This document shows positions 13,016 to 33,112 of a stretch of 64,000 bases of DNA, in pieces (positions within the stretch are counted from its first letter, which is position 1; each line of letters begins with the position of its first letter). The notes beneath the pieces were generated by a model. That model was not told the origin of the DNA. It did no database searches and saw only the letters and a program-made list of their open reading frames with translations. The DNA is from Deltaproteobacteria bacterium (GTDB lineage Bacteria > Myxococcota > SpSt-1050): contig JAOAFA010000121.1 of the NCBI GenBank assembly GCA_026416535.1, positions 12,153 through 76,152 on the forward strand, given 5' to 3'. A program made the position numbers and the translations under genes.

Positions 13016-13495
13016 TTATTTATTGCAAAGGGGAAGGCAGGAGTTGATCAATGAAAGTATAGTGGCGGCGTATATTGCTGCAATTATGTCATCAAGTAAT
13101 ACATAAATAGGTTTTTTTATGTTGTTAACTCTGTTTATCGGGAAGGGTTTTAGTATATCAAAGATCCTAAATAATGTGAAACCTACCAGCAAATTAAGTA
13201 AATTCGTGGGAAATAGATAGAGTGGAGAGTACGAGATTAGAATTCCCAGAATTTCATCAAGTACAATTTTGGGTGAATCAACATCATTAAAATGGCCACC
13301 AGCTATATCTACTGCCCAGAGTCCAACGAAAAATAAAGTAGTCAAGGTAAAAAGATAGATCCATAAATTTAGGTGAGATAGGCCTGTGAACAAAAATACG
13401 GCAAAGAGTGAGCCCATTGTACCAGGTGCAAATGGGGAGTATCCTATACCCAGGCCAGTTGCGAATATCACTGCGATCTTTTCAGATAATTGCAT
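13016..13495 (-). CDS. pgpA: Phosphatidylglycerophosphatase A
   Basis: FATGLGIGYSPFAPGTMGSL is the PgpA motif. About 160 aa membrane protein. Its start overlaps the upstream MMPL gene by 14 nt. Confidence 0.8.
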   Translation of the reverse strand: MQLSEKIAVIFATGLGIGYSPFAPGTMGSLFAVFLFTGLSHLNLWIYLFTLTTLFFVGLWAVDIAGGHFNDVDSPKIVLDEILGILISYSPLYLFPTNLLNLLVGFTLFRIFDILKPFPINRVNNIKKPIYVLLDDIIAAIYAATILSLINSCLPLCNK

Positions 13496-15950: not shown

Positions 15951-15965
15951 AGTTAGTCCATTTTA

Positions 15966-17912: not shown

Positions 17913-17932
17913 GGGGATGTCCTAAATTTTAC

Positions 17933-19621: not shown

Positions 19622-19637
19622 ACGTAACCTCAATACT

Positions 19638-21101
19638 CTAATCGAAGATATTAAATTTGACTTCTCCTTTTGCTTTCTTATATCGTGCCTTTATGTCATC
19701 AATCATTTCTTTAACTCTTGGTGTATTTGGGGATACAATCCTTGGTGTTACAAAGATAGCAAGGTCGGTCTTCTTTTCCTGAAAGTTTCTGGATTTGAAT
19801 AATTCACCTAATATTGGTATATGACCCAGCAACGGAAGTTTACTTACATCCTTTGATTCGTCATTATGAAATAATCCTGATAGAATGATTGTCTCTCCGT
19901 GTTTGACTGTGACTTTTGTAGAAATCCTCCGTGTCTTAAAACCCGGTATTGATACTCCAGAATTTGGAAGCATTATAGAAAGGGAGCGGTCCACGTCACT
20001 TATTTCGGCATCAATGCTTGTCTGTATATTCCCCAAGGAGTCCGCATTCGGGGTTATCTCAAGTTTGACTCCGAAATCTTTATATTCCACACTCGCTGAA
20101 TCTCTGGTAATAAGTGGTATAGGTATCTGTCCACCTGATAGGAAGCTCGCCTTCTCGCCACTTGCTGATATCAGTTTTGGTTGTGCAAGAACTCTGGAGT
20201 AGCCATCATTAAACTGAAAGCCAAAGGCAAAGTCCGAACTTGCAGTGGCTATTCCACTCGTAGTAATTGTTCTTGATGATTCTCCAGAGCCTTTAATTAC
20301 ATTTACGTCATCATATCTAATCGTCCCTTGTAGATTTCCCGATATATCCGTTGGGTATTTGATCCCTATCTTATCAAACGAGCCCCTCTTTATCTCCACG
20401 AATTGTACCTCTAAAAGGACCATTCTTTTTATTCCTATTGTCACTAAGTTCTCTACTTGTTCTCCTACAGCCCTTATGATGATATCCATTTTTTTCATAT
20501 CCTCAGCTGATTCGACCGACCCCTCAAGATAAGCGATATTACCAACTACATTTGCATTGACATCTTTAATACCGTTTCTTTTTAGTGTCTCAACAAGTGC
20601 ATTCGCCGAGAGCCTTTTTGCATTGGGGTTTAGTTTGACGTTATTAGTTACATTTCCATAAAGCTTTGTTAGTTGGACAACACGGTCGTAATCTTCAGTG
20701 GTTATGGCATTCCCTTCAATTATCACTAACTCACCAACTTGGTTTACTTTGATACCTTCTCTATCACCAAGGAGTCTCTTTACATCAGCTATTGTCGCTT
20801 TTTGAGAAGAGGGGGTAACCTTTATTATATATTCTATTTGTTTGTTTCCTTTAAATACAACCATATTGGTCTCACCGGGTCCCATGCCTCGCACAATGAT
20901 CTGATTGCCGACTGCAGAGACTGAAGCAACCGATGAATCTCCCTCTACAACCTTTGTGGCGCCAGGTATGGAAAACGTCCTTGATTGACCTACACTAAGT
21001 ACGATTATGTTAGTAGACCCAGGTGGTAAGGAATCTTCAGTAGAGTAAAGATTACTTATTATCATCAGTGAGAAAATCAGGCTCAATAATGCTTTTTTCA
21101 T
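19638..21101 (-). CDS. cpaC: Tad/Flp pilus-type secretin (CpaC/RcpA family) with BON-like N-terminal domains
   Basis: Signal peptide MKKALLSLIFSLMIISNLYS. C-terminal secretin signature GETIILSGLFHNDESKDVSKLPLLGHIPILGELFKSRNFQEKKTDLAIFVTPRIV. Confidence 0.88.
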   Translation of the reverse strand: MKKALLSLIFSLMIISNLYSTEDSLPPGSTNIIVLSVGQSRTFSIPGATKVVEGDSSVASVSAVGNQIIVRGMGPGETNMVVFKGNKQIEYIIKVTPSSQKATIADVKRLLGDREGIKVNQVGELVIIEGNAITTEDYDRVVQLTKLYGNVTNNVKLNPNAKRLSANALVETLKRNGIKDVNANVVGNIAYLEGSVESAEDMKKMDIIIRAVGEQVENLVTIGIKRMVLLEVQFVEIKRGSFDKIGIKYPTDISGNLQGTIRYDDVNVIKGSGESSRTITTSGIATASSDFAFGFQFNDGYSRVLAQPKLISASGEKASFLSGGQIPIPLITRDSASVEYKDFGVKLEITPNADSLGNIQTSIDAEISDVDRSLSIMLPNSGVSIPGFKTRRISTKVTVKHGETIILSGLFHNDESKDVSKLPLLGHIPILGELFKSRNFQEKKTDLAIFVTPRIVSPNTPRVKEMIDDIKARYKKAKGEVKFNIFD

Positions 21102-21203
21102 AATGTAAGCTCCCAAAAACTTTAATGGAAATATAATATATTTAAGTAATAGGAGTTGTCAATTTTTATTACAGAATTTATTTTATAACCCCCTATAAAC
21201 TTA

Positions 21204-21241
21204 TTGATTGCCACTAATGGATTATCATTTTTGATTGGCAC
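21204..21241. promoter_or_regulatory. Two copies of an 11-mer direct repeat, TTGATTGCCAC and TTGATTGGCAC, spaced 27 bp apart, upstream of cpaC
   Basis: Seen directly at 21204-21214 and 21231-21241. Candidate regulator binding sites. Confidence 0.35.
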
Positions 21242-21732
21242 CTTAATTTTTGTTTTGTATATTTATAATCAAGAGCTTTGATTAATAGACACAAAGATGA
21301 TGGACTATTTAATAATCTGGTATTATTCCTAAAGTTAATTTTACTTTTGAAATGTCACATTTACTTAATACTCTTCTCCATGGGTGATTTAATGCTGTTT
21401 GTATCTCTTCTTTCTCTCCAACTTCATCAATCCCAAATACTAAAAATTCTTCTCCTCTCTCTGTTTCTGCCTCAAATTATTCTTTTCCTCTATCTTCTAA
21501 GTATGATAACTCTTTACCTTCCCATAAAATCTCTATCTATCCTTCCATCCAGAAGTTCGCATATCTCTACCCATCTTCCAACAGAAACTCTTTATACTGA
21601 CCAAAGGAAGGAGTTAGTATAGCTCTTCTCGCAAAATCTAATTGTATTCTCCTTGTTTACATTTCTTGTCTGCTTTATTAAAAAGATTCAGAGACCTGAA
21701 CAAAAAGTGACATTTCAACTTAGTAATATCCT

Positions 21733-21757
21733 GTGACATTTTAAAATAGTGATCACA
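21733..21757. promoter_or_regulatory. Inverted repeat TGTGA-N16-TCACA containing the perfect palindrome GTGATCAC, about 100 bp upstream of the RHH gene
   Basis: Seen directly. The related motif GT(G/C)ACATTT also occurs at 21354, 21707 and 21734. Confidence 0.3.
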
Positions 21758-21862
21758 CATTTTCAAATTTTGCTTGATTTATTAAAAATTGATAGTATAT
21801 TATTTACATTATATGTTATGCTTTATATGGTAACATAATTATTCGTTATAAAGGAGCTTGAG

Positions 21863-22051
21863 ATGGAAGGTAAGAAGATTTCTACAACAGTTTATATAAC
21901 TGAGGAGCAAAAGAGGAAACTTGAAATCCTACATAAGAAGACAAATGTGCCTATAGCTGTATACATAAGGAAGGGTATTGATATGGTGCTTGATGCCAAT
22001 AAGGATAAGTTAACCGAGCAGATTAATTTACCGGGGCAAATTGGAAAGTAG
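21863..22051 (+). CDS. Ribbon-helix-helix (CopG/Arc/MetJ-like) small DNA-binding protein
   Basis: 62 aa. TVYITEEQKRKLEILHKKTNVPIAVYIRKGIDMVL matches the RHH beta-strand plus two-helix pattern. RBS AAGGAG. Confidence 0.6.
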   Translation: MEGKKISTTVYITEEQKRKLEILHKKTNVPIAVYIRKGIDMVLDANKDKLTEQINLPGQIGK

Positions 22052-22054
22052 TTG

Positions 22055-22981
22055 ATGAGAGTTTTAGTAACTGGTGGTGCGGGTTTTATAGGTTCTAATG
22101 TAGTTGATGCCTATGTAGAGAAGGGATATGAGGTCTTAATTCTGGATAATCTTTCGACTGGGAAGGAAGAGAATCTCAATAAAAAAGCGAAATTTGTAAA
22201 GGCAGATGTAAGAGATTTTGAGGCGGTTAAGAAGATAGTTAGTGATTTTAAACCTGATGTTGTAAGTCACCATGCAGCACAGATTGATGTAAGAAAATCA
22301 GTAGAAGATCCACAATTCGATGCTGAGGTTAATATTATAGGGATTATCAATCTTCTTCAGGCTATAAAGGATTATAATGTGAAAAAATTTATATTTGCTT
22401 CTTCGGGCGGGGCATCTTATGGAGAACAAATATATTTTCCAGCTGACGAGGAGCATCCACAAAATCCAGAAAGTCCTTATGGGATATGTAAGTTGACATC
22501 AGAAAAGTATTTGAGATACTACAAGAGAGCCTTTGGTCTTTCATATATATCTTTGAGATATTCCAATGTATATGGCCCAAGACAAGATCCTCTAGGAGAG
22601 GCTGGGGTTGTTGCTATTTTTACCAGTAGATTACTGAGAAAGGAGCCTTGTGTGATTTATGGGGATGGCAAACAAACACGGGATTACATATTTATTGCTG
22701 ATGTTGTGGAGGCGAATCTAGCGGCAATTGGCTCAACTTATAATGGGCCTATTAACGTAGGAACCGGTATTGAGACAGATGTAAATACGATTTATTCACT
22801 CTTGTGTGAAATAACTGGATTTAGTGGGGAGGCAGTGTATGCTCCAGCAAGGGTTGGTGAACAGAGAAGATCGGTGATATCAAATAATCTATTAAAAGAG
22901 GTATTAGGTGTAGAAAATCTTACCCCACTTAGGATAGGTCTTGAAAAGACGGTTGAATATTTTAGATCTACTGCTTTATAG
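22055..22981 (+). CDS. NAD-dependent epimerase/dehydratase (extended SDR; UDP-sugar 4-epimerase-like)
   Basis: VLVTGGAGFIGSNVVDAYVEKGYEV is the Rossmann motif. Catalytic YGICK (YxxxK). Confidence 0.85.
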   Translation: MRVLVTGGAGFIGSNVVDAYVEKGYEVLILDNLSTGKEENLNKKAKFVKADVRDFEAVKKIVSDFKPDVVSHHAAQIDVRKSVEDPQFDAEVNIIGIINLLQAIKDYNVKKFIFASSGGASYGEQIYFPADEEHPQNPESPYGICKLTSEKYLRYYKRAFGLSYISLRYSNVYGPRQDPLGEAGVVAIFTSRLLRKEPCVIYGDGKQTRDYIFIADVVEANLAAIGSTYNGPINVGTGIETDVNTIYSLLCEITGFSGEAVYAPARVGEQRRSVISNNLLKEVLGVENLTPLRIGLEKTVEYFRSTAL

Positions 22982-24458
22982 AAACTGATTTTAGGGTTTT
23001 ATATCCTTTTAGTCCATAGAAAACATTGAGAGAAATATTCTGATCGTCGATAAATACAAAGGTTTGCATGAGATTACGGTTTTGTAATGAGTACAAGTCG
23101 AGATTGTAAATCCATGTCCCAGAGTTAATTAGATATTTTAATTCGTCGACCATGAGAAATCGTGGAAAGTGTGTGTGGCCAAAAATAACATACCTGAGTT
23201 CGGGAATTTTTAAAAGCCTCTTTGCTACTTCAATCTCCTCGGGGAATGGTCTATCAATCTCTTCGGGTTGGGATGAGATCTCTTTTGTTATAGAACGATG
23301 GACATCTATTATTAATGCAACTATTAGCAATATTACAATAGGAATCCAAAAGAATTTCATTACTCCATATATTAGAATCCCAAAGGATATTCCGATAAGT
23401 ATTCTAAAGAAGATATTTATTGGATAGGCAATCGTGGGTTTCTTACCAAAGACATTGCTTATGAATTTTCCCACAATGTAAAAACCAGTACTTATGATTA
23501 AGAATATTGAGAATTCTGTGAGGGATGATAGAGTAAAATCTATAGCCTGATCTAAATTCGATTTTTTGCTTACGTCCAAAAAGAATAGTCCTTTTATGAA
23601 GAAGAAGGAGACCATAAATATAATCGTCAATAGAGTCAATCCGCCAAAGTTTAAAAGATTTGTAAGTGATGCAGATATGAGCTCTGGTTTTGAGAGTCTC
23701 TTTTCATCTATGGACTTTCTAATAAGGTTGGAGGGATTGAAATCCCTTTTAGCCATATGGAAGAACATATCTAAGAAATAGTCAAATCTAAATACCCAGA
23801 ATAGGGGTCTTTGAGCTATGGCGAGACTAATCGATGCTGTCATTGGTCTTATCTTGTCAATAAATGGGAACGATTTTTCTAATTTGTTCCAAAGTATCTT
23901 CACAAGGATTGAACCGAATGGAAGCTCAATGTGCTTTTTCTTGATGTCATGAAAAGGCGATTGAAAGTTTGAGAACGAATTTAATTTATCAAACTGGTTC
24001 CCGTGTTCTACATAAACACCTTTTTCTTCAATATAATATCCGTACTCTGGAAATAATATCTGGTCTTTATGCTCTTCTCCTATTAGTTCCCTGAATTTTT
24101 TCTGTACTGTATCGAATGCAAACTCTGCATCGTGATTCCCCTTTAAGACTACGATCTGATTTCTCGGGTTTTTCAGGAAATTTGAGAGTGTGCCAAAAAA
24201 TGTTTGATGTCTTTTGTATACCCTATCAAGTATCTTGGCTGATGAGTCTGAGTCATTGTAGAGTCTCGGGTTCCCTTGCAGCGATGTTTCGGATGGATAT
24301 GATTGTAGAAAATCTATAGTATCACCGTTAAAGATTAGTGTTGTTGGCTCACCCCTACTCATTAGGTTTAGCATCTGTGCAAAATCCTCATCAGAGTAAA
24401 AGTCGTCCAATAATTCCTCTGTTGAGAGGTGTAAATCTGATACAATTATGTAGTTCAA
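22968..24458 (-). CDS. Membrane-embedded calcineurin-like metallophosphoesterase (catalytic motifs interrupted by a 3-4 TM insertion)
   Basis: Motifs in order: SDLHL, GDTIDF, GNHD, EHGN, then hydrophobic helices at roughly residues 265-385, then GHTHFP. The start is TTG with a strong GGGAGGAG RBS. The 3' end overlaps the epimerase 3' end, convergently. Confidence 0.7.
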   Translation of the reverse strand: MNYIIVSDLHLSTEELLDDFYSDEDFAQMLNLMSRGEPTTLIFNGDTIDFLQSYPSETSLQGNPRLYNDSDSSAKILDRVYKRHQTFFGTLSNFLKNPRNQIVVLKGNHDAEFAFDTVQKKFRELIGEEHKDQILFPEYGYYIEEKGVYVEHGNQFDKLNSFSNFQSPFHDIKKKHIELPFGSILVKILWNKLEKSFPFIDKIRPMTASISLAIAQRPLFWVFRFDYFLDMFFHMAKRDFNPSNLIRKSIDEKRLSKPELISASLTNLLNFGGLTLLTIIFMVSFFFIKGLFFLDVSKKSNLDQAIDFTLSSLTEFSIFLIISTGFYIVGKFISNVFGKKPTIAYPINIFFRILIGISFGILIYGVMKFFWIPIVILLIVALIIDVHRSITKEISSQPEEIDRPFPEEIEVAKRLLKIPELRYVIFGHTHFPRFLMVDELKYLINSGTWIYNLDLYSLQNRNLMQTFVFIDDQNISLNVFYGLKGYKTLKSVSIKQ

Positions 24459-24890
24459 TTTAATCTCCTCCCGTATATTTTTATACCAAACACTGAGTTT
24501 ATTACAATTAAAAATGGTTTGGATTTTGGAACTATACCCATTAGTGTTGCTATTGAAAATAACACAGTGTTGATTTGTTCTTTTATGGCCTGACTCGCGA
24601 CTATGGAGTGATAGTTGTTTATAACTTAGATTGGCCTAATACAAATGTGTCTCAGTTTGGAGATATTTTTAGTATATTCAAGGAGATAGGAGTGGGACCA
24701 AGATCTAAGGCTTAAAATCTGGATCTAGATATGTTACTCAATACAGCGAGTGCCTATTTTCGACAGCTTTTGGTCCTAAAAGTGTGGTTACAAAATCATT
24801 TATTGGTAGTATGGTGTAGATATGTAAATAAATTTTTATATTGAAGAATGTAAATATTGGTGGTAATTGAAAATGTTATTGAGGGGTTAT

Positions 24891-26291
24891 ATGAAACGTA
24901 AAGAACTTATTGGAAAGATATTGATAGAGAGGCTAATGATAAATGAGTCTATTGTTATAAACGCCCTTACAAGGCAAAAAACAGATAAGATGAGGATATG
25001 CTCTCAAATTTTGAAGGCTGGGGCGTTATCTGAGGAAGTTCTTGCAAGGGCGCTTAGTTATCAATATGGTATTCCTGCTATTGTTTTGGGTAAGTCTCAG
25101 ATACTCTTGTCGAATCTTGGAATAGTGCCCTATCATATAGCTCGTCAAAATCAGATCTTACCGGTAGCAACTAGCGGGGAGAAGGTTATATTGGCCATGC
25201 GTGATCCTGAAAATACTCAGATAATCTCCGAGATTGAGTTTATCTCTGGGAAGAAGGTAATGCCTCACATCGCACTTGAATTTATGCTTTCTATATCAAT
25301 TGACGAGGCATATAGATTATACAAGTTGAGTCGTGAGGGACTACTGAGAGGGAAGGATATACCATCAAATGCCATAAAAGAGGAACACATCGAAGTTGCA
25401 ATTGCGGAGTTGTCGGTAGAGCCTGAGCTAGCCGGCCCTGATAGATTTGAAGTTGTCTCAATGCAAGATGACATAGAAAATATTACAAGAGGAAGAGATA
25501 TTGCTGATGAGTTCAGAGATAGGAATAAACCTCTTATATGTATAGTTGATGATGAACCAGAGATAAGGACCCTATTGAAGAAGATTGTAATCTCAGAGGG
25601 CTACGATACTGTAGAATTTTCACGTGGTGATGAGGCATTTAGGTCTATCCCTAAGGTCTTACCAGATTTGATCATTTTGGACGCCATGTTGCCAGGTATG
25701 CATGGATTCGATATATGTAAGGCGTTAAAGACGGACTCGAAGTTAAGAAATATCCCAATAATCATAGTAAGTGCAGTTTATACAGGTTGGAGATTTATGG
25801 AAGATATTAAGAAGACTCATGGGGCAGATGATTATATAGAAAAGCCGTTCAGAATAGATATGCTTACTAATAAAATCAAGGCATTGCTTAGAAAGGTGGC
25901 ACCACATTCGGGAACTACAACTGGAGAGTTGAGTATAGATGTAAAGAACCTTTATAATAGTGCAGTGAGACTCTATAAAGAGGGAGATATAGATGGTGCT
26001 ATATACCAATTTAAAAAGGGAATAGAGAAGGACAATTTTTACTATAGGCTTCATTACGGGCTTGCACTCTGCTATCAGAGTAAAAAGGAAGATTATATGG
26101 CCATATCCGAACTTGAAAAGACTGTAGAACTCAAACCCGATTTTTTACCAGCCTTAAAGGCTCTAGCCCTTCTATACCAACAGAAGGGTTTTAGAAATAA
26201 GGCAGTAGAGGCATGGGAGCGGGCATTGAATGTTGCCTCAGATGAGGAGACGAGAACAAAGATTAAGGAATATCTCATCAAGATTTTGTAG
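24891..26291 (+). CDS. Regulator with N-terminal T2SSE_N/MshEN-like domain, central receiver (REC) domain and C-terminal TPR repeats
   Basis: T2SSE_N pattern LIGKILIERLMINESIVINALTRQ...ILPVATSGEKVILAMRDPENTQIISEIEFISGKKV. REC domain ICIVDDEPEIRTLL...DLIILDAMLPGMHGFDICKALK. TPR-like tail. GAGGGG RBS before the ATG at 24891. Confidence 0.75.
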   Translation: MKRKELIGKILIERLMINESIVINALTRQKTDKMRICSQILKAGALSEEVLARALSYQYGIPAIVLGKSQILLSNLGIVPYHIARQNQILPVATSGEKVILAMRDPENTQIISEIEFISGKKVMPHIALEFMLSISIDEAYRLYKLSREGLLRGKDIPSNAIKEEHIEVAIAELSVEPELAGPDRFEVVSMQDDIENITRGRDIADEFRDRNKPLICIVDDEPEIRTLLKKIVISEGYDTVEFSRGDEAFRSIPKVLPDLIILDAMLPGMHGFDICKALKTDSKLRNIPIIIVSAVYTGWRFMEDIKKTHGADDYIEKPFRIDMLTNKIKALLRKVAPHSGTTTGELSIDVKNLYNSAVRLYKEGDIDGAIYQFKKGIEKDNFYYRLHYGLALCYQSKKEDYMAISELEKTVELKPDFLPALKALALLYQQKGFRNKAVEAWERALNVASDEETRTKIKEYLIKIL

Positions 26292-26297
26292 TACCGT

Positions 26298-28049
26298 ATG
26301 AAATTTTCCTGCAATAGTTGCAATGCGAGATATAATCTGCCGGATGAGAAATTTGCTGGCAAGGTTATAACTCTTACTTGTAAGAAGTGTGGAGTTAAGA
26401 TAGTAGTAAAACCATCTAATCCCTCGCATGGTATGCAATCACAAAAAGAGGGCTCTAATTTGGGAACAAGTTTAGTGGCCGCGGATCTGCAGATTGAAAA
26501 ATCGACTAAAAGGCAGGAGTTAAAGAGAAAGGATCTTACAACAAGGTCTACTGTTGGAGAAAAAAGGTATGATAAATCTTTCGAGGGAGATAAGGCATTA
26601 GAGAAGGGTGTGAGTTCTGTTAGAATGGATGTGAAAAAAGTGGGAGAGGTAGATAGTATCAGGTCGGTTGATGAGAGATATAAAGGCGTTAAGGGGAAGG
26701 AAGAGAGGTTAGAGAGGAACCGTGAAGTTAAAAGTGAGAAGTTGGAGGAGGAAGACAAGGAATTAGCAGTTTGGTATTACTCACGTGGTGGTGAACAGAA
26801 GGGACCGTTCACTGATGAAGAAATTAGAGAGTTAGTAGAGAGCAATGTAATAACTCCAAAGACATTTATATGGAAAGATGGGATGTTGGACTGGATGAGG
26901 GCATCGACGGTTGTAGAATTTAAACACTTTTTTGAAGGTAAACCTAGCAAGGAACCTGTGGTAAAAGAGGTTGTAGAATCTTTGGGTTTAGAGGAATTAG
27001 ATAAAAAATTCAAGGATCAAAAGGTTGGGGAGAGGATTCAGGAAGTGGATGTTTTGGGTAGTGAGGGAGCAGATAAGGGTGGGGGAACTCAGGAAGACTT
27101 CTTTTCCATAGGATTTGGTCAAAATACTCAAAAATCTCCTGAGGAGGATTGGACTAAGATACCACTGTCTAATGAGGTGTCAGAAGAGCCTCGTGAAAAT
27201 ACGAGGATCGTGATTATGAAGGCAGGGCTCTCTGAGGCAGCAAAGAAAAAAAGGGTAATAATGGGGATTGTTGTGGCCGTATTTTTGCTTAGTGTATTTT
27301 TGTTCGTATTTATTAGAAATCTTGAACCTATCCTCTCGGCAGTTGGTGTCCAGGTTAAAAGTGGGATCGACCTCGAAATGGAGGATTTAGATAAAGATAC
27401 CCTTTCTAAGATGACACCTGAAGAACAGGAGAAATACAGAAAGGCACTCCTTGGTATAAAAGAGACGAAAAAGCTTACAAAGGAACAAAAGAGGACTATA
27501 GCAATGGCTATTACTCAAAGGAAAGACTCTGATATGGTTAGTATTCTTGAAAGTGCAAAGGTTGATACTTCGAGCATAATTTATGATAACCTTGGGAGAG
27601 AAAGAATGGGGCCTCAAGGAGGTATAACCACTTCAGTGGATATTGATTCAAGGCTCGCTAATTTGGGTATTAACACAAAGATTGAAGGTGTTGATTTGAG
27701 TTCTAGGGGAATCAAGCAGGATGTGGATCTTTCACAGAAATTGCCCGATAAGGTTGATACTCTTAGTGAAGACATAGTTATGAGTATAGTCAATAAGAAC
27801 AGAAGTTCTGTGAAATACTGCTATGAGAGGCACCTTAGGGCTAGTAGTTTCTTGGAAGGTAAGGCGGTCTTCAAGATTACTATTCATAATTCTGGTTCTG
27901 TCTCAAAGGTTGATTCACTCTCCAAACAGATTTCAGGAAGTCTTTTTGAAGATTGTATTATCAAGGAGATTAGAAAGTGGGTTTTCCCAAAGTTTTCTGG
28001 TGACCCTATTGTCTTTGAGATACCGTTTGTCTTGACCTCTGTGAATTGA
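26298..28049 (+). CDS. GltJ-like bitopic protein: N-terminal zinc ribbon, GYF-like (DUF4339) domain, single TM helix, C-terminal TonB-C-like domain
   Basis: Zinc ribbon CNSCNARYNLPDEKFAGKVITLTCKKCG. GYF-like WYYSRGGEQKGPFTDEEIRELVESNVITPKTFIWKDGMLDWMRAS. TM helix IMGIVVAVFLLSVFLFVFI. TonB_C-like end FLEGKAVFKITIHNSGSVSKVDSL...IIKEIRKWVFPKF. Confidence 0.65.
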   Translation: MKFSCNSCNARYNLPDEKFAGKVITLTCKKCGVKIVVKPSNPSHGMQSQKEGSNLGTSLVAADLQIEKSTKRQELKRKDLTTRSTVGEKRYDKSFEGDKALEKGVSSVRMDVKKVGEVDSIRSVDERYKGVKGKEERLERNREVKSEKLEEEDKELAVWYYSRGGEQKGPFTDEEIRELVESNVITPKTFIWKDGMLDWMRASTVVEFKHFFEGKPSKEPVVKEVVESLGLEELDKKFKDQKVGERIQEVDVLGSEGADKGGGTQEDFFSIGFGQNTQKSPEEDWTKIPLSNEVSEEPRENTRIVIMKAGLSEAAKKKRVIMGIVVAVFLLSVFLFVFIRNLEPILSAVGVQVKSGIDLEMEDLDKDTLSKMTPEEQEKYRKALLGIKETKKLTKEQKRTIAMAITQRKDSDMVSILESAKVDTSSIIYDNLGRERMGPQGGITTSVDIDSRLANLGINTKIEGVDLSSRGIKQDVDLSQKLPDKVDTLSEDIVMSIVNKNRSSVKYCYERHLRASSFLEGKAVFKITIHNSGSVSKVDSLSKQISGSLFEDCIIKEIRKWVFPKFSGDPIVFEIPFVLTSVN

Positions 28050-28844
28050 ATGTTCATATTTTATCTGCTTCTAGTCGTATCTTTGATTGATCTTAGGGGG
28101 ATTGAGGAGCTTATAAGTGAGGGCGCTAATCTAACTTTTGATAAGAAATTAGAAGTTATCACCTCTTCATTTTTAAATGTTCCGTTTAAGAAGTCATCAA
28201 TAGGAGAAGAAAATGAGATAGACCCTGACCCTATTATTAATTTGGATTATATGGATTGTGTGACGTTTGTTGAGTATGTGATTGCATTTGTAAATTCAAG
28301 AGATATAAAAGAATTTAAAAAACATGTGTTAAGTTTGAGGTACATTGGAGGTAAGATAGATTTTTATAATCGTCTGCACCTACCAGATTTTCAATGGTTC
28401 CCAAATGCAAGTAAGAACGGCTATATAAGCGATATAACCTTTCAGGTAGGAAAAGGTTATGTAAGAAGGTTTAAGAAGAGGCTGGATAAAGATTTTATCG
28501 TTGATGGATATAAAATAGATAGTTCTAAGTTAATTTCTAGAGATGTGGAAATAGATTATATCCCCAAAGAACATATATTTAATGTTTATAAGGATATTCC
28601 CAAATATTCTATTATAAGAATTTTAAGGAAGGACTCTTATAGACCGTTTGTTACGACCCATATAGGGATTGTTGTGGAAAAGGGGAATAAAAAGTATTTA
28701 AGACATTCCTCTAGGCATTTTGGGGCAAAAGTGACAGATACCCCACTTGGGGCATATTTTTCTACACTTGATAAATATGAAAATTGGGAAGCCCTTGGAG
28801 TTGCACTCTATAAAATTAATGATATAAATGGGGGGACAAAATAA
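28050..28844 (+). CDS. DUF1460-family protein (NlpC/P60-like, amidase-like papain fold)
   Basis: Conserved Cys/His context MDCVTFVEYV ... TTHIGIVVEKG. The start overlaps the upstream stop (TGAATG). Confidence 0.55.
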   Translation: MFIFYLLLVVSLIDLRGIEELISEGANLTFDKKLEVITSSFLNVPFKKSSIGEENEIDPDPIINLDYMDCVTFVEYVIAFVNSRDIKEFKKHVLSLRYIGGKIDFYNRLHLPDFQWFPNASKNGYISDITFQVGKGYVRRFKKRLDKDFIVDGYKIDSSKLISRDVEIDYIPKEHIFNVYKDIPKYSIIRILRKDSYRPFVTTHIGIVVEKGNKKYLRHSSRHFGAKVTDTPLGAYFSTLDKYENWEALGVALYKINDINGGTK

Positions 28845-28853
28845 TTTTGATTT

Positions 28854-29768
28854 ATGAGTGTGATTAACAAAAAAGTCTTTTGGGCAAGATTATCTGTTAT
28901 TTCAAATACTATATTGGCTGTTTTTAAGCTCATCGTGTTTAGTTATACTGGTGCAGTTTCCATATTGTCTGAGGCAATACATTCTGGAATAGATCTCCTT
29001 GCGGCTTTGATTGCCTATTTTTCTGTTAAAAAGTCGTCGGAGCCTCCTGATAGAGAGCATCCATTTGGGCATGGTAAATTTGAAAATCTGTCCGGTTTTG
29101 TAGAGTCACTATTGATTATAGCTGCTGCTTTTTACATTTTTTATGAGGCAATTCCAAGATTTTACAAGGAGCATAGGATAGATTCAATAGATATAGGTAT
29201 ATATGTAATGGCTCTATCTGCTCTAATTAATTTCTTTGTCTCTCGGAAGCTTTACAAGGTTGCCAGAGAGACGGATTCCATAGCTATTGAAACAGATGCG
29301 GCGCATCTCTCCGTAGATGTCTACACATCTTTGGGTGTTCTTATAGGATTATCTCTAATTTATATTACAGGATTGCAAGTTATTGATCCTATTATCTCTA
29401 TTATAATCGCTTTTTATATTTTATATCTGGGGTTCGTGTTGACAAAAAAATCTACTAAGGATTTGTTAGATACCAAATTATCGGATTCTGACAATCAGGA
29501 TATAGAGAATATTATTGCCCAACATATTGGGAAAATAGTCTCGTTTCACAAGTTGGCTACTCGGAAGTCTGGAAGTGAAAAGATGATAGAGGTTCATCTA
29601 CAATTTATGCCCAATATCTCGCTTAAGCAGGCTCATGAGATCGCTCATCACATAAAAGATGATATAAGAGATAAGATATCATCTGCCAGAGTTACAATTC
29701 ATATAGAACCATGTGAGGAGTTGTGTAAAGAGTGTAGTTCTAATGGCTGTACATCTAGAAAGGAGTAG
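28854..29768 (+). CDS. Cation diffusion facilitator (CDF) family metal efflux transporter
   Basis: TM domain with SEAIHSGIDLLAALIAYFSVKK and HGKFENL motifs, plus a C-terminal cytoplasmic domain. Confidence 0.85.
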   Translation: MSVINKKVFWARLSVISNTILAVFKLIVFSYTGAVSILSEAIHSGIDLLAALIAYFSVKKSSEPPDREHPFGHGKFENLSGFVESLLIIAAAFYIFYEAIPRFYKEHRIDSIDIGIYVMALSALINFFVSRKLYKVARETDSIAIETDAAHLSVDVYTSLGVLIGLSLIYITGLQVIDPIISIIIAFYILYLGFVLTKKSTKDLLDTKLSDSDNQDIENIIAQHIGKIVSFHKLATRKSGSEKMIEVHLQFMPNISLKQAHEIAHHIKDDIRDKISSARVTIHIEPCEELCKECSSNGCTSRKE

Positions 29769-29773
29769 TTATT

Positions 29774-29974
29774 TTACTTTATAATCATTTCTTCTCCGCA
29801 GCATATTACCGGATGGTACTCCTCACAACCACATACGTTGTCAACAACGAGGACCATGCCGCACTCACTACATTCAAGTGTTGAACCTGATTTGATTTTC
29901 TTTGTTTCTTTCTCATAGCAACCTTTCACCTTTTTTGTTTCCTTTTTACCTTTTTTTGGTGAATCCTTCTTCAT
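29774..29974 (-). CDS. Small desulforedoxin-like Cys4 metal-binding protein with Lys-rich N-terminal tail
   Basis: LECSECGMVLVVDNVCGCEEYHPVICCGEEMI resembles desulforedoxin (CxxCG...CCG). The N-terminus is K-rich (KKGKKETKKVKG). Confidence 0.5.
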   Translation of the reverse strand: MKKDSPKKGKKETKKVKGCYEKETKKIKSGSTLECSECGMVLVVDNVCGCEEYHPVICCGEEMIIK

Positions 29975-30070
29975 ACTAACCTCCTAAATACTAACCCTTA
30001 TATTTAGATTAAATATTATACCGTAGGATTCCGGGATTCTTGAAAAAGAAAGTCATGATCAGGTAATTTT

Positions 30071-33000
30071 TCAAAAACTGGTGGTTTGTAATTCTTTTAT
30101 TATCGATGTCATCTCCTGATCCTTTATGTTGTTAGTGTCAATATTAGCTAATAATTCTCTTACTTTTTCAAAATTACCTTTATTGTAGTGGTGTTTGATA
30201 ATCAACAATAGGGCATCTTCTTTCTCTTTATCGGTAATTGAATCTGATGAAAGTAGTGTTTGAGTATATAATTCTAGCTTTTCTGTCTCTCCTAAAACGA
30301 AGTATATTTTTTGAATATTTGTGAGAAACTCTTTGTCCCTTGTCTCTTCAAGGCACCTATCTATGTGGGCGAATAATAGTTCATTTTTACTTTTATAAAA
30401 GATCGAAGTGGTTAGTTCTACATATTTTCTTAGGATATGAGATATGTTATTACACTTTGTGGGTGAGTAATTCTCTTTTGATTGAGGATAGTTTTTGAGA
30501 AATGTATGATATGCCAATAATTCAGCATAGTTATTAATTATGTAAATATTTTCTTTGTCTAGGTTGTAATCTAGTATGTACCCGAAACAACTTCTTGCAA
30601 CTTGTTTCTGTCCTCTAGCCTCGCAAGATTTAATAAATTCCAATAATTCTTCAAAATTCATTTTATATATAACGTCTTTTATTAATTCTTTTGTATTTAA
30701 TTTACTATATTCGTGATTTACATTTGTCTCTGCTATAATAGAGATTATATTTGATGTCCTCCCTACAAAAAATGCCTTAGGGGCCTCGTATTCAATGATA
30801 GGGAACTTGTCTTCATTTACTATTAGATCTTCTTCGCCCTTCCCATAATACGTTTTAAACTTATGATGACCTATCATATTCATAGAGACGAATTCAGGAA
30901 TAGTATTTGGAATTCCTAATGAGTGTTTGTCTTCAATTGTCGAAAGAAAAACAGGATCTTTGAACTTTTTGGCTATTCTTTGTTGGTCTATTTTAATGGG
31001 TTTGTTGGAGCCAACAATAAGGAGATCAAGTTGAGCAGGTGCAAACACGTAGGCGTATTCAAATACTCTACCAAACGTATTAAGCATAATGTTTAGTATT
31101 TTATCATTTGTCTCATAGGCCTGAAACCACTGCACAAAAATGCCATTCTCCTTTAGGTGGGATTTAACCTCCTCAAAGTATTGAACAGTAAACAGGTTGG
31201 CCACTCCTGCCATCCATGGGTTTGAAGGCTCCGATATTATTATGTCGTATTTTTTCTGTGGATTCAGTTTTAAATATTCTCTACCGTCAGCATTAATGAC
31301 TCTGACTTTTTTATTGTTTAAGACATCGAGGTTTTCTTCTTTGAATAGTTTGGCTGCCTCAATAACCTCTTTTGATATCTCAAGAAGCTCTATATTCTTT
31401 ATTTCCTCGTGAGTAGCTAATACCCCACCTGTTACTCCACTCCCCATTCCTAATAAAAATACATCCTCGGGATTTGGATGCAATAGTACACCAATGTGCC
31501 CACACCATATTTGGGTCGGCATGTCAAAGCCCGTACTTGCATCTGGTTTTCCGTTTATTCTGAGCGATAATATTCCTTTAGGGGATTTTGTTACTGAAAC
31601 TACCGCATCTTTGCCTTCTTTGAAGAATATAAGGTCTTCATGATCTTTTACCTTCAAAAATTCTTCAAATGATTTTGCATAACGGTTTCTTAGTCTAAAA
31701 TTCCCTCGCTGGATATATTCTTTATCTATAAATTCGTAAGTAAATAATAGGCTGCCTACCAAAATTACTAACAGTAGAGATAAATATTTAAAAAGAGCCT
31801 TTACTCTTATTGTGAATAGTAGTATTATTGCGATAATAAAGTTTATAATAATTCCTGTCTTCATAGATGCTTCCATACCCATGGTAGGTAACATGATAAA
31901 GCCTGCCACAAGAGATCCTACTAAATTCCCCAACGTATTTATTGAGAAGGTGTCGCCTACTCCAATGCCGAGTTTCGTTATACTCTTTGTGTTTATATGG
32001 CTTACAAGAGGCAATGTCATCCCAATAAAGAACGTTGGTAAGAACATAATTGTAAAGCAGATTATTACTTTTGAGATTTCATAAAATATGAACATTGCCT
32101 CTGTCCTTGGAATACTTCCCCCGATAACATTGAAGTAATATGGGAGTCTCATATATAAAGGGAGGGCACAAATGATAGTTATTGCAATGAAAAGTTCGAT
32201 GATGGCGAACCAGAGCAGGTGATTTATCTTTCTATTCAATACCTTGTGGATGAAATATGAACCAACGGCAATTCCTGTTATGAAGGTGAATAACATAATT
32301 GCAAATGATTGAACAGCAGAACCTATTATGAGTGCAAGCATCCTTGTCCAGACGACTTCGTATACCATTGAGACGAATCCACTGATGCCGATTGCTACGA
32401 GTACTACCCTTACTTGAAACTCTGAATATGCCTCTTCATTGCCTACAGTTTTATTGTTGTCAGTATCTTCAATCTGTTGTGGTATAATAGAAAAATCTTC
32501 GCTGATACTTTTACTCATATAATATGTTACTACACCGATTAGGATGTTAACAAAAGAGAAGAGTTGAACAGAGAAATCTAGTCCAATGGTATGGATAACA
32601 AAATAACCACCAATTATTGTCCCAATGATAGCACCTACTGTATTTAAGAAATATAGCAATCCAACTTTTGCTCCTACCTCTCTAATCTGTCTTATTATGA
32701 ATTTACTCATCACAGGGAGTGTTCCACCCATCAGTGTGGTAGGAAGCAGAATTGTCATAACACTAAAGATGAGTTTTAAAATGATGTTCCCCCAGGTATT
32801 TGGAATCGAACCGCTAGCTAGTATAAAATATAGGTTAAAGATGGTGTCAAAATAGAGTGGGAACAGGGCGCAAGTAATCCCAATTCCGAATTCTAAATAA
32901 GAGTAGAGCCGAAGTGGATTTTTATATCTATCAACAAACTTTCCGAATATGTGGTTACCTAATGCAAGTCCGCCCATGAATGTTGAAAGTAAAATACCAG

Positions 33001-33112
33001 TAGAATAAGATGTGGCTCCTAAAAATAGATTAAAATATTTTGACCATACAACTTGGTATATCAGACCTGCCATCCCAGATAGAAAGAAGCAAGCATAGAG
33101 GATGTATTTCAT
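30071..33112 (-). CDS. Fusion protein: polytopic MFS-like membrane domain, spermidine/spermine synthase-like domain, TPR-like C-terminal region
   Basis: About 14 TM helices N-terminally. Spermidine synthase fold motifs VFLLGMGSGVTGG and KYDIIISEPSNPW. 1013 aa. Confidence 0.75.
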   Translation of the reverse strand: MKYILYACFFLSGMAGLIYQVVWSKYFNLFLGATSYSTGILLSTFMGGLALGNHIFGKFVDRYKNPLRLYSYLEFGIGITCALFPLYFDTIFNLYFILASGSIPNTWGNIILKLIFSVMTILLPTTLMGGTLPVMSKFIIRQIREVGAKVGLLYFLNTVGAIIGTIIGGYFVIHTIGLDFSVQLFSFVNILIGVVTYYMSKSISEDFSIIPQQIEDTDNNKTVGNEEAYSEFQVRVVLVAIGISGFVSMVYEVVWTRMLALIIGSAVQSFAIMLFTFITGIAVGSYFIHKVLNRKINHLLWFAIIELFIAITIICALPLYMRLPYYFNVIGGSIPRTEAMFIFYEISKVIICFTIMFLPTFFIGMTLPLVSHINTKSITKLGIGVGDTFSINTLGNLVGSLVAGFIMLPTMGMEASMKTGIIINFIIAIILLFTIRVKALFKYLSLLLVILVGSLLFTYEFIDKEYIQRGNFRLRNRYAKSFEEFLKVKDHEDLIFFKEGKDAVVSVTKSPKGILSLRINGKPDASTGFDMPTQIWCGHIGVLLHPNPEDVFLLGMGSGVTGGVLATHEEIKNIELLEISKEVIEAAKLFKEENLDVLNNKKVRVINADGREYLKLNPQKKYDIIISEPSNPWMAGVANLFTVQYFEEVKSHLKENGIFVQWFQAYETNDKILNIMLNTFGRVFEYAYVFAPAQLDLLIVGSNKPIKIDQQRIAKKFKDPVFLSTIEDKHSLGIPNTIPEFVSMNMIGHHKFKTYYGKGEEDLIVNEDKFPIIEYEAPKAFFVGRTSNIISIIAETNVNHEYSKLNTKELIKDVIYKMNFEELLEFIKSCEARGQKQVARSCFGYILDYNLDKENIYIINNYAELLAYHTFLKNYPQSKENYSPTKCNNISHILRKYVELTTSIFYKSKNELLFAHIDRCLEETRDKEFLTNIQKIYFVLGETEKLELYTQTLLSSDSITDKEKEDALLLIIKHHYNKGNFEKVRELLANIDTNNIKDQEMTSIIKELQTTSF

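What the first reader, a model, noticed from the sequence alone, without database searches (positions are those of the whole stretch)
24891..26291. MshEN(T2SSE_N)-REC-TPR regulator, a possible c-di-GMP sensor near the secretin locus
The N-terminal 140 residues match the T2SSE_N fold. The first helix pair retains an LxxALxxQ-type motif that, in MshE-N domains, binds c-di-GMP. This domain normally sits on PilB/MshE/GspE ATPases. Here it is fused instead to a receiver domain and TPR repeats, with no ATPase. That is a stand-alone architecture that could recruit or regulate the neighbouring machinery in response to c-di-GMP and phosphorylation.
Basis: partly seen in the sequence, partly recalled or inferred. 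Interest (0 to 1): 0.55.

Follow-up and report, generated by a model that had tools for sequence, protein, structure and literature searches.

The report
MshEN–receiver–TPR regulator paired with GltJ-like gene
This gene encodes an uncharacterised signalling protein with a probable c-di-GMP-sensing domain, a phosphorylation switch and a protein-binding tail; across myxobacteria it almost always sits directly upstream of a membrane protein resembling a gliding-motility component, not next to the secretin locus.

Summary
Window 24891-26291 (+) encodes a 466-aa protein with a complete MshEN domain (res 1-150), a disordered linker, a canonical receiver domain (213-335) and three TPR repeats (349-466). 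It has no ATPase domain.

The 53-residue MshEN nucleotide-binding register is intact: two 24-residue motifs and a 5-residue spacer. Eleven of 12 ligand-contact positions are kept or conservatively replaced. The exception is the motif-II glycine (VcMshE G40), which is Cys here and Ala in 91% of the family. G40I weakens MshE binding 72-fold. c-di-GMP binding is therefore plausible (about 50%) but unproven.

The protein belongs to a large Myxococcota family, with relatives at 563 places among species-representative genomes, all annotated only as "response regulator". The secretin/Tad-like locus upstream is not a conserved neighbour (0 of 80 loci). In 73 of 80 loci the next gene downstream encodes a GltJ-like protein (zinc ribbon, GYF, TM helix, AgmX/PglI TonB-like C-terminus).

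My best reading is a cytoplasmic adaptor that integrates phosphorylation, and probably c-di-GMP, to control that GltJ-like envelope protein. MshEN-receiver fusions were catalogued in 2016. This domain order, the Ala/Cys-Ser motif variant and the conserved partner appear undescribed. Interest is moderate.

The parts
24881..24886 (+). Shine-Dalgarno-like GAGGGG, 4 nt before ATG 24891
   Evidence: Read directly from the sequence. It supports ATG 24891 rather than TTG 24867 as the start.
24891..26291 (+). Gene for the 466-aa MshEN-REC-TPR response regulator
   Evidence: ORF; Pfam; 100% identical NCBI protein and more than 1000 homologues with the same architecture.
24891..25082 (+). MshEN_N four-helix bundle (res 1-64; helices 7-14, 19-32, 36-42, 48-59)
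   Evidence: AlphaFold models; phmmer to 5HTL and PilB; Foldseek top hit 5HTL.
24906..24977 (+). Motif I (res 6-29): L-I-G-KI-LI-ER-L-MI-NESI-V-INA-L-TR-Q
   Evidence: Manual register against RLGxxLLxxGLLxxxxLxxxLxxQ. The Gly8 position is Gly in all 185 family sequences compared. The first position, Leu, fits the extended (R/K/L)LG consensus. The turn Gly (VcMshE G18) is Leu15.
24978..24992 (+). 5-residue spacer (K30-M34)
   Evidence: Same length as in VcMshE. It varies from 3 to 10 residues in the family.
24993..25064 (+). Motif II (res 35-58): R-I-C-SQ-IL-KA-G-AL-SEEV-L-ARA-L-SY-Q
   Evidence: The Gly-to-Cys37 change is at the VcMshE G40 position (Ala 91%, Cys 8%, Gly in 1 of 185 sequences). 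The next residue is Ser in 99%. The L55 and Q58 positions are Leu and Gln in all 185.
25083..25340 (+). MshEN_C (T2SSE_N1-like) alpha/beta subdomain, res 65-150
   Evidence: The Pfam MshEN hit covers res 59-142; model pLDDT above 90.
25368..25526 (+). Disordered acidic linker (res 160-212) with a conserved short motif, DRFEVVSMQDDIENI
   Evidence: pLDDT below 50 for res 172-210. Linker length is 45-144 aa across the family. A recurring acidic/hydrophobic motif is seen (E-[IL]-S-[SV]-V in Polyangia relatives).
25527..25895 (+). Receiver (REC) domain, res 213-335; phospho-acceptor Asp264 (nt 25680-25682)
   Evidence: Pfam 4.9e-23; PDB receivers such as MtrA and PhoB at E 1e-19. D220, D221, D264, S294 and K318 are invariant in 34 diverse homologues, as are Y297, G299, W300 and R301 in helix alpha4.
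25935..26288 (+). C-terminal TPR domain (res 349-466; seven helices, about three TPRs plus a capping helix)
   Evidence: Pfam TPR_2 and TPR_11 above cut-off; helices in the model.
26298..28049 (+). Conserved partner gene: GltJ-like protein of 583 aa. It has a zinc ribbon (1-33), a GYF domain (159-208), one TM helix (about 337-356) and an AgmX/PglI TonB-like C-terminal domain (489-579).
   Evidence: Pfam. Best PDB hits are M. xanthus AgmX/GltJ GYF (7Z3C) and ZnR (7ZOK). NCBIfam: AgmX/PglI C-terminal domain 81.6 bits (cut-off 40); GltJ equivalog 118.8 bits (cut-off 450). A homologue lies immediately downstream in 73/80 loci. It starts 6 nt after the stop of the regulator gene, in the same frame.
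28050..29768 (+). AmiA-like amidase-family gene (28050-28844) and cation-diffusion-facilitator gene (28854-29768). They abut the pair and may be co-transcribed in this lineage only.
   Evidence: Pfam. Conserved only in the two closest relatives, L001 and L002. No terminator-like site on the + strand between 24300 and 30100.

Best explanation
The gene encodes a soluble, orphan response regulator that acts by protein-protein interaction, not DNA binding. It has three modules:
- an N-terminal complete MshEN domain that most likely still binds a cyclic dinucleotide (c-di-GMP) through a family-specific variant of the bipartite site;
- a fully canonical receiver domain phosphorylated at Asp264 by an unlinked histidine kinase;
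- a C-terminal three-repeat TPR domain as the output.

Its functional partner is the protein encoded 6 nt downstream. That partner is a GltJ-like bitopic inner-membrane protein whose cytoplasmic zinc-ribbon-linker-GYF region resembles the switch module of Myxococcus GltJ. Its periplasmic end carries the AgmX/PglI TonB-like domain.

The proposed mechanism is as follows. Phosphorylation remodels the alpha4-beta5-alpha5 face, which carries an invariant YxGWR motif. Dinucleotide binding reorients MshEN_N against MshEN_C. Together these changes control whether the TPR domain and/or the conserved linker motif engages the cytoplasmic region of the GltJ-like protein. This would couple second-messenger and two-component signals to a TonB-like trans-envelope transducer.

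Shown: domain identities, intact phosphorylation residues, motif register and conservation, and conserved gene pairing.
Inferred: ligand binding, physical interaction with the partner, and the direction of control.
For: Domains:
- Pfam, PDB sequence hits, AlphaFold and Foldseek agree on the three domains.
- The REC catalytic quintet D220/D221/D264/S294/K318 is invariant in 34 diverse homologues. Helix alpha4 carries an invariant Y297-x-G299-W300-R301.

Binding site:
- The 24+5+24 register is the same as in VcMshE.
- G8 (G11 equivalent, whose G11L mutation abolishes binding), L55 and Q58 are 100% conserved in 185 sequences.
- The 12 ligand-contact positions are the most conserved part of the four-helix bundle. 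Mean column entropy is 0.67 bit, against 1.49 for bundle-core positions and 1.91 for the rest.
- Loss of the first-position Arg is tolerated or even favourable. PilF GSPII-B has K/L there and binds at 6 nM; GSPII-C has Pro at motif II position 1 and binds at 460 nM.
- G40I still binds, with Kd 36 uM.
- Bd1509 carries Asn at the G40 position and was still picked up in a c-di-GMP capture screen.

Partner:
- A zinc-ribbon gene starts 1-516 nt downstream in 73/80 loci from different species.
- Of 58 complete partners, 58 have the zinc ribbon, 55 have GYF, and 54 have the AgmX/PglI C-terminal domain.
- In M. xanthus the GltJ GYF domain docks the receiver-domain adaptor AglZ, and gltJ lies next to the TPR protein GltI (PMC11135422, PMC11761067).
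Against: - The motif-II Gly (G40 equivalent) is Cys here and Ala or Cys in 184 of 185 family sequences. In VcMshE, bulky substitutions at either Gly severely reduce binding. No MshEN with Ala or Cys at this position has been tested in anything I could find.
- The turn Gly of motif I is replaced (Leu here, Lys/Arg in the family). L54 is Ala in half of the family.
- No diguanylate cyclase or phosphodiesterase gene lies in the window.
- There is no direct evidence that the two proteins interact. Gene adjacency is the only link.
- No kinase is conserved nearby.
- The full-length model has pTM 0.41, so it says nothing about interdomain contacts.
Confidence: 0.5

Rival explanations
1. The MshEN domain here is a degenerate version that does not bind nucleotide and serves only as a protein-docking module. 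Examples are the N-terminal domains of X. citri PilB (binds PilZ), GspE (binds GspL), XpsE and PilF GSPII-A. On this view the protein is a phosphorylation-only adaptor for the GltJ-like partner or for a PilM/GspL-like protein.
For: - The motif-II Gly is replaced in 184 of 185 family members and the motif-I turn Gly is lost.
- G40I costs 72-fold in affinity and G11L abolishes binding.
- XpsE and PilF GSPII-A are natural non-binders with the same fold.
- Foldseek finds the PilB-N:PilZ complex (7LKO/7LKM) with scores about as good as the c-di-GMP-bound structures.
Against: - The ligand-contact positions are the best-conserved part of MshEN_N, including invariant G8, L55 and Q58. A pure docking role does not predict this.
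- Known non-binders differ at many key positions (eight in XpsE; motif II is 45% identical in GSPII-A). Here only one of the 12 differs.
Confidence: 0.33
2. The protein regulates or recruits the neighbouring secretin/Tad-like pilus machinery (FHA-CpaF ATPase 17933-19633, secretin 19638-21116), replacing the missing MshEN domain of that ATPase.
For: - MshEN normally sits on secretion or pilus ATPases.
- The nearby CpaF-type ATPase carries an FHA domain rather than MshEN.
- The locus is only about 3.8 kb away.
Against: - The secretin matched none of 80 related loci and the FHA-ATPase matched 4, at positions I did not check.
- The cluster is on the opposite strand. It is separated from the gene by an epimerase gene and a membrane metallophosphoesterase gene.
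- The conserved neighbour is the GltJ-like gene instead.
Confidence: 0.07
3. It is an OmpR/PhoB-type DNA-binding transcription factor, as JGI's automatic name 'DNA-binding response OmpR family regulator' suggests.
For: The receiver domain is most similar to OmpR/PhoB-family receivers such as MtrA, PhoB and RpaA. The JGI names are listed.
Against: - There is no winged-helix (Trans_reg_C) or other DNA-binding domain.
- The region after REC is TPR.
- NCBIfam scores are far below every equivalog cut-off, for example PhoB 97.5 against 296.
Confidence: 0.02

Closest known systems
MshEN domain of Vibrio cholerae MshE (PDB 5HTL) and of PilB-type ATPases
   Same: - Same two-subdomain fold, and the best Foldseek hit.
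- Same 24+5+24 motif register.
- Retained: Gly of motif I, the Leu clusters, both Gln, and Arg of motif II.
   Different: - There is no ATPase; the domain is fused to REC and TPR.
- The motif-II Gly-Asp is replaced by Cys-Ser (Ala-Ser in the family).
- The motif-I Arg is Leu, and the motif-I turn Gly is lost.
- Binding is untested.
Bdellovibrio bacteriovorus Bd2402 (REC-MshEN_N response regulator, binds c-di-GMP with Kd 0.4 uM)
   Same: - A response regulator that carries an MshEN-type c-di-GMP site.
- It has an imperfect motif (Phe at motif I position 1, Asn at the motif II turn Gly) and a shorter spacer.
   Different: - In Bd2402 the REC domain is N-terminal and only the MshEN_N subdomain is present, with both key Gly retained.
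- Here the order is MshEN(N+C)-REC-TPR and the motif-II Gly is lost.
Thermus thermophilus PilF GSPII-A/B/C domains
   Same: They are natural variants of the motif. GSPII-B (K/L at first positions) binds at 6 nM, and GSPII-C (Pro at motif II position 1) binds at 460 nM. This shows that the Arg losses seen here are tolerated.
   Different: - These domains sit on a pilus ATPase.
- GSPII-A, with a strongly degenerate motif II, does not bind. It is the model for the rival explanation.
Myxococcus xanthus GltJ with its cytoplasmic partners AglZ (receiver + coiled coil) and GltI (giant TPR protein, adjacent gene)
   Same: - The downstream gene has GltJ's architecture: ZnR, linker, GYF, TM, AgmX/PglI C-terminal domain.
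- In Myxococcus the GltJ cytoplasmic region docks a receiver-domain protein, and GltJ is encoded next to a TPR protein.
   Different: - The partner scores far below the GltJ equivalog cut-off (118.8 against 450 bits).
- No other glt or agl genes are in the window.
- AglZ and GltI have no MshEN domain.
- None of the M. xanthus MshEN sequences printed in Wang et al.'s Supplementary Fig. 3c alignment shows this family's signature.
E. coli NfrB (glycosyltransferase-MshEN, locally c-di-GMP controlled)
   Same: - An MshEN domain used outside ATPases.
- Its motif I, 'RPLGQILLENQVIT', closely resembles the family consensus 'RPLGKILLQRKLVS'. Both lack Arg at position 1 and lack the turn Gly.
   Different: - NfrB keeps Gly in motif II.
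- Its output is an enzyme, not REC-TPR.
Xanthomonas citri PilB N-terminal domain in complex with PilZ (7LKO)
   Same: Same fold, used as a protein-docking surface.
   Different: It senses c-di-GMP indirectly rather than binding it directly. It represents the non-binding alternative.

Membership tests
MshEN / T2SSE_N domain (Pfam PF05157) | Profile match above the curated cut-off | tested here: met
   55.6 bits against a cut-off of 23.1, res 59-142. phmmer aligns res 6-141 to PilB N-termini at E 1e-17.
MshEN / T2SSE_N domain (Pfam PF05157) | Two-subdomain fold: a four-helix bundle plus an alpha/beta subdomain | tested here: met
   Model with pLDDT 93.9. It has helices 7-14, 19-32, 36-42 and 48-59, followed by a beta/alpha unit. 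The top PDB hit is 5HTL and all 20 best hits belong to this family.
c-di-GMP-binding MshEN (Wang et al. 2016 motif) | Two 24-residue motifs in tandem with a short spacer | tested here: met
   Motif I is res 6-29, the spacer is res 30-34 (5 residues), and motif II is res 35-58.
c-di-GMP-binding MshEN (Wang et al. 2016 motif) | Gly at position 3 of motif I (VcMshE G11; G11L abolishes binding) | tested here: met
   Gly8, 100% conserved in 185 family sequences.
c-di-GMP-binding MshEN (Wang et al. 2016 motif) | Gly at position 3 of motif II (VcMshE G40; G40I weakens binding 72-fold) | tested here: not met
   Cys37 here. In the family it is Ala 91%, Cys 8%, and Gly in 1 of 185 sequences.
c-di-GMP-binding MshEN (Wang et al. 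2016 motif) | Leu at positions 2, 17 and 21 and Gln at position 24 of both motifs | tested here: met
   I7, V22, L26, Q29 and I36, L51, L55, Q58. All substitutions are conservative. The equivalents of L58 and Q61 are invariant.
c-di-GMP-binding MshEN (Wang et al. 2016 motif) | Arg, or Lys/Leu in the extended consensus, at position 1 of each motif | tested here: met
   Leu6 and Arg35 fit the (R/K/L)LG consensus of PMC11731258. Most family members have Gln or Pro at motif I position 1.
c-di-GMP-binding MshEN (Wang et al. 2016 motif) | Measured specific binding of c-di-GMP | not testable with these tools
   This needs ITC, DRaCALA or DSF on purified protein.
Two-component receiver domain (PF00072) | Profile match and the conserved quintet: acidic pair, phospho-acceptor Asp, Ser/Thr, Lys | tested here: met
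   81.9 bits against a cut-off of 30.2. D220, D221, D264, S294 and K318 are invariant; the aromatic switch is Y315.
TPR repeat proteins | TPR profile matches above the cut-off | tested here: met
   TPR_2 34.3 bits (cut-off 27) and TPR_11 27.4 bits (cut-off 26.8). Seven helices span res 349-465.
PilB/MshE/GspE secretion ATPases | T2SSE (PF00437) ATPase domain with Walker motifs | tested here: not met
   No T2SSE hit in the protein. TIGR02538 PilB matches only res 7-143, at 56.5 bits against a cut-off of 675.
OmpR/PhoB transcription factors | C-terminal winged-helix DNA-binding domain | tested here: not met
   No such domain. All equivalog scores are far below their cut-offs.
GltJ (NCBIfam NF033761), for the downstream partner | Score at or above the equivalog cut-off | tested here: not met
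   118.8 bits against a cut-off of 450. The 58 partners in other loci reach E 4.6e-39 at best; their bit scores were not reported.
AgmX/PglI C-terminal domain proteins (NF033768), for the downstream partner | Domain model above the cut-off | tested here: met
   81.6 bits against a cut-off of 40, res 489-579. Found in 54 of 58 partners.

The most novel reading that the evidence does not exclude
The family-wide replacement of Gly-Asp by Ala/Cys-Ser in motif II only, with motif I kept canonical, may create an asymmetric dinucleotide site. Such a site could be tuned to a different ligand, for example the hybrid 3',3'-cGAMP. Myxococcus makes 3',3'-cGAMP, and VcMshEN already binds it weakly.

On this reading the module would be a cyclic-dinucleotide- and phosphorylation-gated adaptor. 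It would switch a GltJ-like TonB-type envelope transducer, giving a second-messenger input into a Glt-like surface machinery in Polyangia and related Myxococcota.
Probability: 0.1. Interest if true: 0.75.

Novelty: new variant of a known kind. Interest (0 to 1): 0.42.

Why it matters
Myxobacteria encode many MshEN proteins (17-22 in M. xanthus), and almost none has a known function. The inputs that regulate Glt-type envelope machines beyond MglA are also poorly known.

This is a conserved two-gene module found at 563 places among species-representative genomes. It joins a probable cyclic-dinucleotide sensor and response regulator to a GltJ-like transducer. That gives a concrete, testable route by which second-messenger and two-component signals could reach a TonB-like trans-envelope protein. 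It also supplies a natural Gly-to-Ala/Cys variant of the MshEN site for testing the limits of the binding motif.

It does not change any established concept unless binding specificity turns out to be new.

Tried and rejected
- Secretin/Tad link: tested by tblastn of all window neighbours against 80 related loci and rejected. The secretin matched none, and the FHA-ATPase matched four at unexamined positions.
- Conserved kinase or other partner: all-against-all clustering of flanking ORFs found only tgt, queA, NtrC-type regulators and a sigma-70 factor. These look like a housekeeping context.
- Other glt/agl genes in the 64-kb window: none found.
- Riboswitch or other RNA element around the operon: no Rfam hit in 21000-30200.
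- M. xanthus orthologue: none of the MshEN sequences printed in Wang et al.'s Supplementary Fig. 3c alignment carries the family signature 'RLAS...ALSEQxGVP'. I could not scan the genome itself.
- Full-length Foldseek search: dominated by receiver domains and uninformative for MshEN. I re-ran it with the N-domain alone.
- AFDB search for named organisms: the library was unavailable.
- Exact-sequence look-up of the window protein in the contig index: not on record.
- Pro-rich linker as a GYF ligand: Pro-rich in only 52 of 190 family members and not in this protein (4% Pro), so it is not a family feature.
- Literature searches for MshEN + TPR/gliding, GltJ + c-di-GMP, and MshEN + Myxococcota: none describes this module.
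Full report
WHAT IS THERE

A GAGGGG Shine-Dalgarno sequence lies at 24881-24886. All homologues begin at the equivalent methionine. The 466-aa product is identical to a GenBank MAG protein annotated only as "response regulator [Deltaproteobacteria bacterium]".

Pfam finds MshEN (res 59-142, 55.6 bits against a cut-off of 23.1) and Response_reg (res 216-329, 81.9 bits). It also finds TPR repeats (res 361-448, with TPR_2 and TPR_11 above cut-off). It finds no T2SSE ATPase domain.

The Pfam MshEN hit covers mainly the C-terminal subdomain. The N-terminal four-helix bundle is established by other evidence. phmmer aligns res 6-141 to Geobacter and Myxococcus PilB N-termini (E 1e-17 to 1e-14). It aligns res 4-108 to the crystallised V. 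cholerae MshEN (5HTL, E 5e-9).

The full-length AlphaFold model has mean pLDDT 81.9 and shows three confident domains. These are joined by a disordered linker (res 172-210) and a short hinge (res 337-347). Its pTM of 0.41 gives no information on how the domains are arranged.

A model of res 1-165 alone has pLDDT 93.9 and pTM 0.87. Its best PDB match is 5HTL, "MshE with cdg" (E 1.4e-8). All 20 best hits are MshEN, GSPII, PilB-N or XpsE-N domains.

THE NUCLEOTIDE-BINDING MOTIF

Wang et al. [quoted passage not shown] The protein fits this register exactly:
- Motif I is L6-I-G-KI-LI-ER-L-MI-NESI-V-INA-L-TR-Q29.
- The spacer is K30-M34.
- Motif II is R35-I-C-SQ-IL-KA-G-AL-SEEV-L-ARA-L-SY-Q58.

Of the 12 ligand-contacting positions, 11 are identical or conservatively replaced.
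- Leu at the first position of motif I is covered by the extended (R/K/L)LG consensus from the T. thermophilus PilF GSPII-B structures. There, non-Arg residues at this position give 6 nM affinity.
- PilF GSPII-C, with Pro at motif II position 1, still binds at 460 nM (PMC11731258).

The real deviation is the motif-II glycine (VcMshE G40), which is Cys37 here. The helix-turn glycine of motif I (G18) is Leu15.

In VcMshE, G11L abolishes binding. G40I raises Kd 72-fold, to 36 uM (Supplementary Table 1).

I compared 185 non-identical family N-domains.
- The G11 equivalent is Gly in 100%.
- The G40 equivalent is Ala in 91%, Cys in 8%, and Gly in one sequence.
- The following residue is Ser in 99% (Asp in MshE).
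- The equivalents of L58 and Q61 are invariant.
- The spacer varies from 3 to 10 residues.

The 12 contact positions are the most conserved part of the bundle. Mean column entropy is 0.67 bit, against 1.49 for the bundle-core positions and 1.91 for the remaining positions. This argues that the pocket is under selection.

Natural MshEN domains with imperfect motifs do bind. Bd2402 binds at 0.4 uM. Bd1509, which has Asn at the G40 position, was picked up in a c-di-GMP capture screen.

I conclude that dinucleotide binding is plausible, at roughly even odds. Affinity is probably lower than for canonical MshEN, or specificity may be altered. It is not demonstrated.

RECEIVER AND TPR DOMAINS

The receiver domain carries D220, D221, D264, S294 and K318, all invariant in 34 diverse homologues. 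It also has the aromatic switch Tyr315. An unusual invariant Y297-x-G299-W300-R301 lies in helix alpha4. It is therefore a genuine phospho-receiver.

No histidine kinase is a conserved neighbour. A hybrid kinase-like gene at 11428-12987 is 12 kb away. I did not test whether it is conserved near the family.

The C-terminus is a short TPR module, typical of protein-protein outputs. JGI's automatic name "DNA-binding response OmpR family regulator" is wrong, because there is no DNA-binding domain.

FAMILY AND CONTEXT

More than 1000 database proteins match. The best 120 all share the MshEN-REC-TPR architecture and come from Myxococcota, Polyangia or "Deltaproteobacteria" assemblies.

A scan of one genome per species found 563 places that encode a relative. 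The best 80 were fetched. Almost all are Polyangiaceae, Polyangiales, Sandaracinaceae, Labilithrix or unclassified Myxococcota MAGs.

In 73 of these 80 loci, a gene beginning with a CxxC...CxxC zinc ribbon starts 1-516 nt downstream of the regulator gene. Among the 58 complete downstream proteins:
- 58 have the zinc ribbon;
- 55 have a GYF domain;
- 54 have the AgmX/PglI C-terminal domain;
- most have one predicted TM helix in the middle, by a crude hydrophobicity scan.

In the window this gene is 26298-28049. It begins 6 nt after the regulator's stop codon. Its best PDB matches are the GYF (7Z3C) and zinc-ribbon (7ZOK) domains of M. xanthus AgmX/GltJ. It passes the AgmX/PglI C-terminal domain model (81.6 bits against 40). 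It falls far short of the GltJ equivalog cut-off (118.8 bits against 450). It is therefore a GltJ-like paralogue family, not GltJ itself. The window contains no other glt or agl genes.

The Tad-like cluster on the minus strand comprises:
- an MMPL protein (13482-15950);
- an FHA-FHA-TPR protein (15966-17912);
- an FHA-CpaF ATPase (17933-19633);
- a secretin (19638-21116).

It is separated from the regulator gene by an epimerase gene and a membrane metallophosphoesterase gene. The secretin matched none of the 80 loci; the FHA-ATPase matched four, at positions I did not examine.

The AmiA-like and CDF genes that follow the pair are shared only with the two closest relatives.

HOW IT PROBABLY WORKS (INFERENCE)

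In M. xanthus, GltJ's cytoplasmic ZnR-linker-GYF region is a switch. It docks the receiver-domain adaptor AglZ through the GYF domain, and it docks MglA-GTP and MglB through the linker and the zinc ribbon (PMC11135422). The giant TPR protein GltI is predicted to bind the GltJ GYF domain (PMC11761067), and gltI is the gene next to gltJ (my recollection of the M. xanthus glt cluster; not checked here).

By analogy, and given the very strong gene pairing, I propose that the MshEN-REC-TPR protein is the cytoplasmic adaptor of the GltJ-like transducer. Phosphorylation of Asp264 and ligand binding to MshEN would together control whether its TPR domain engages the partner's cytoplasmic region. The conserved acidic linker motif DRFEVVSMQDDIENI may also take part.

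Only the domain identities, the site conservation and the synteny are shown. Binding, interaction and output are inferred.

The main rival is that the MshEN domain is a non-binding docking module, as in X. citri PilB-N:PilZ, XpsE or PilF GSPII-A.

COMPARISON WITH WHAT IS KNOWN, AND NOVELTY

MshEN domains fused to receiver domains were catalogued in 2016. One such protein, Bd2402, binds c-di-GMP, although its order is REC-MshEN_N.

The alignment in Wang et al.'s supplement prints 23 rows for M. xanthus MshEN proteins, which the main text numbers at 22. None shows this family's signature. The family thus seems centred on Polyangia and other non-Myxococcus lineages, but I could not scan the M. 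xanthus genome directly.

No NCBIfam model is specific for the family. Literature searches found no paper describing an MshEN-REC-TPR protein or its pairing with a GltJ-like gene. A conserved-neighbourhood figure in Attia et al. 2024 could not be read.

I rate this a new variant of a known kind. It is a well-supported, uncharacterised module of moderate interest, not a new principle.

The most novel reading that remains open concerns the family-specific Ala/Cys-Ser change, which occurs in only one half-site. It could retune the pocket for an asymmetric ligand such as 3',3'-cGAMP. Myxococcus produces this dinucleotide, and VcMshEN already binds it weakly. I give this about 10% probability.

Noticed in passing
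window 13482-21116 (- strand): A Tad-like cluster in which the CpaF-type ATPase carries an N-terminal FHA domain. It is flanked by a secretin with a T2SS-T3SS_pil_N domain, a protein with two FHA domains plus TPRs, and an MMPL transporter. FHA-fused pilus ATPases are unusual. The cluster may be related to the myxobacterial Kil/Tad-like systems.
   Followed up: partly
window 25368-25526 (res 160-212 of the regulator) and homologues: The linker is otherwise disordered and varies in length (45-144 aa). It keeps a short acidic/hydrophobic motif: 'DRFEVVSMQDDIENI' here and '[DE]F..(E)[IL]S[SV]V[ST].LP[DE]' in Polyangia relatives. This could be a docking motif. About a quarter of homologues also have Pro-rich linkers; this protein does not.
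   Followed up: partly
window 25779-25793 (res 297-301): Receiver helix alpha4 carries a YxGWR motif that is invariant across the family. The flanking signature 'LDAMLPxxHGF' surrounds the phospho-acceptor. Both were specific enough to retrieve the family from genomes. This may be the output surface.
   Followed up: no
window 22968-24458 (- strand): A calcineurin-like metallophosphoesterase whose central part looks like several transmembrane helices, with phosphoesterase motifs at both ends. It is divergently transcribed from the regulator gene. It was not found in any of the 80 related loci.
   Followed up: partly
window 28050-29768 (+): An AmiA-like (PF07313) amidase-family gene abuts the GltJ-like gene with no gap, and a cation-diffusion-facilitator gene follows. 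Together they form an apparent four-gene operon, seen only in this lineage and its two closest relatives (L001, L002).
   Followed up: partly
window 30071-33112 (- strand): A 1013-aa fusion of an MFS-type membrane domain with a spermidine-synthase-like methyltransferase domain.
   Followed up: no
window 11428-12987 (+): A protein with HATPase_c and a C-terminal receiver domain (hybrid kinase-like). It is the only kinase-type gene seen in the window and a conceivable, but unlinked, phosphodonor.
   Followed up: no
window 26093-26758 (- strand): A 221-aa antisense ORF overlaps the end of the regulator gene and the start of the GltJ-like gene. It has a low-complexity Ser/Leu-rich translation and is almost certainly not a gene.
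   Followed up: no
loci L005, L011 and about 30 others: In many Polyangia genomes the regulator/GltJ-like pair sits next to tgt and queA (queuosine tRNA modification) and an NtrC-type regulator. This suggests a stable chromosomal position rather than a mobile module.
   Followed up: partly
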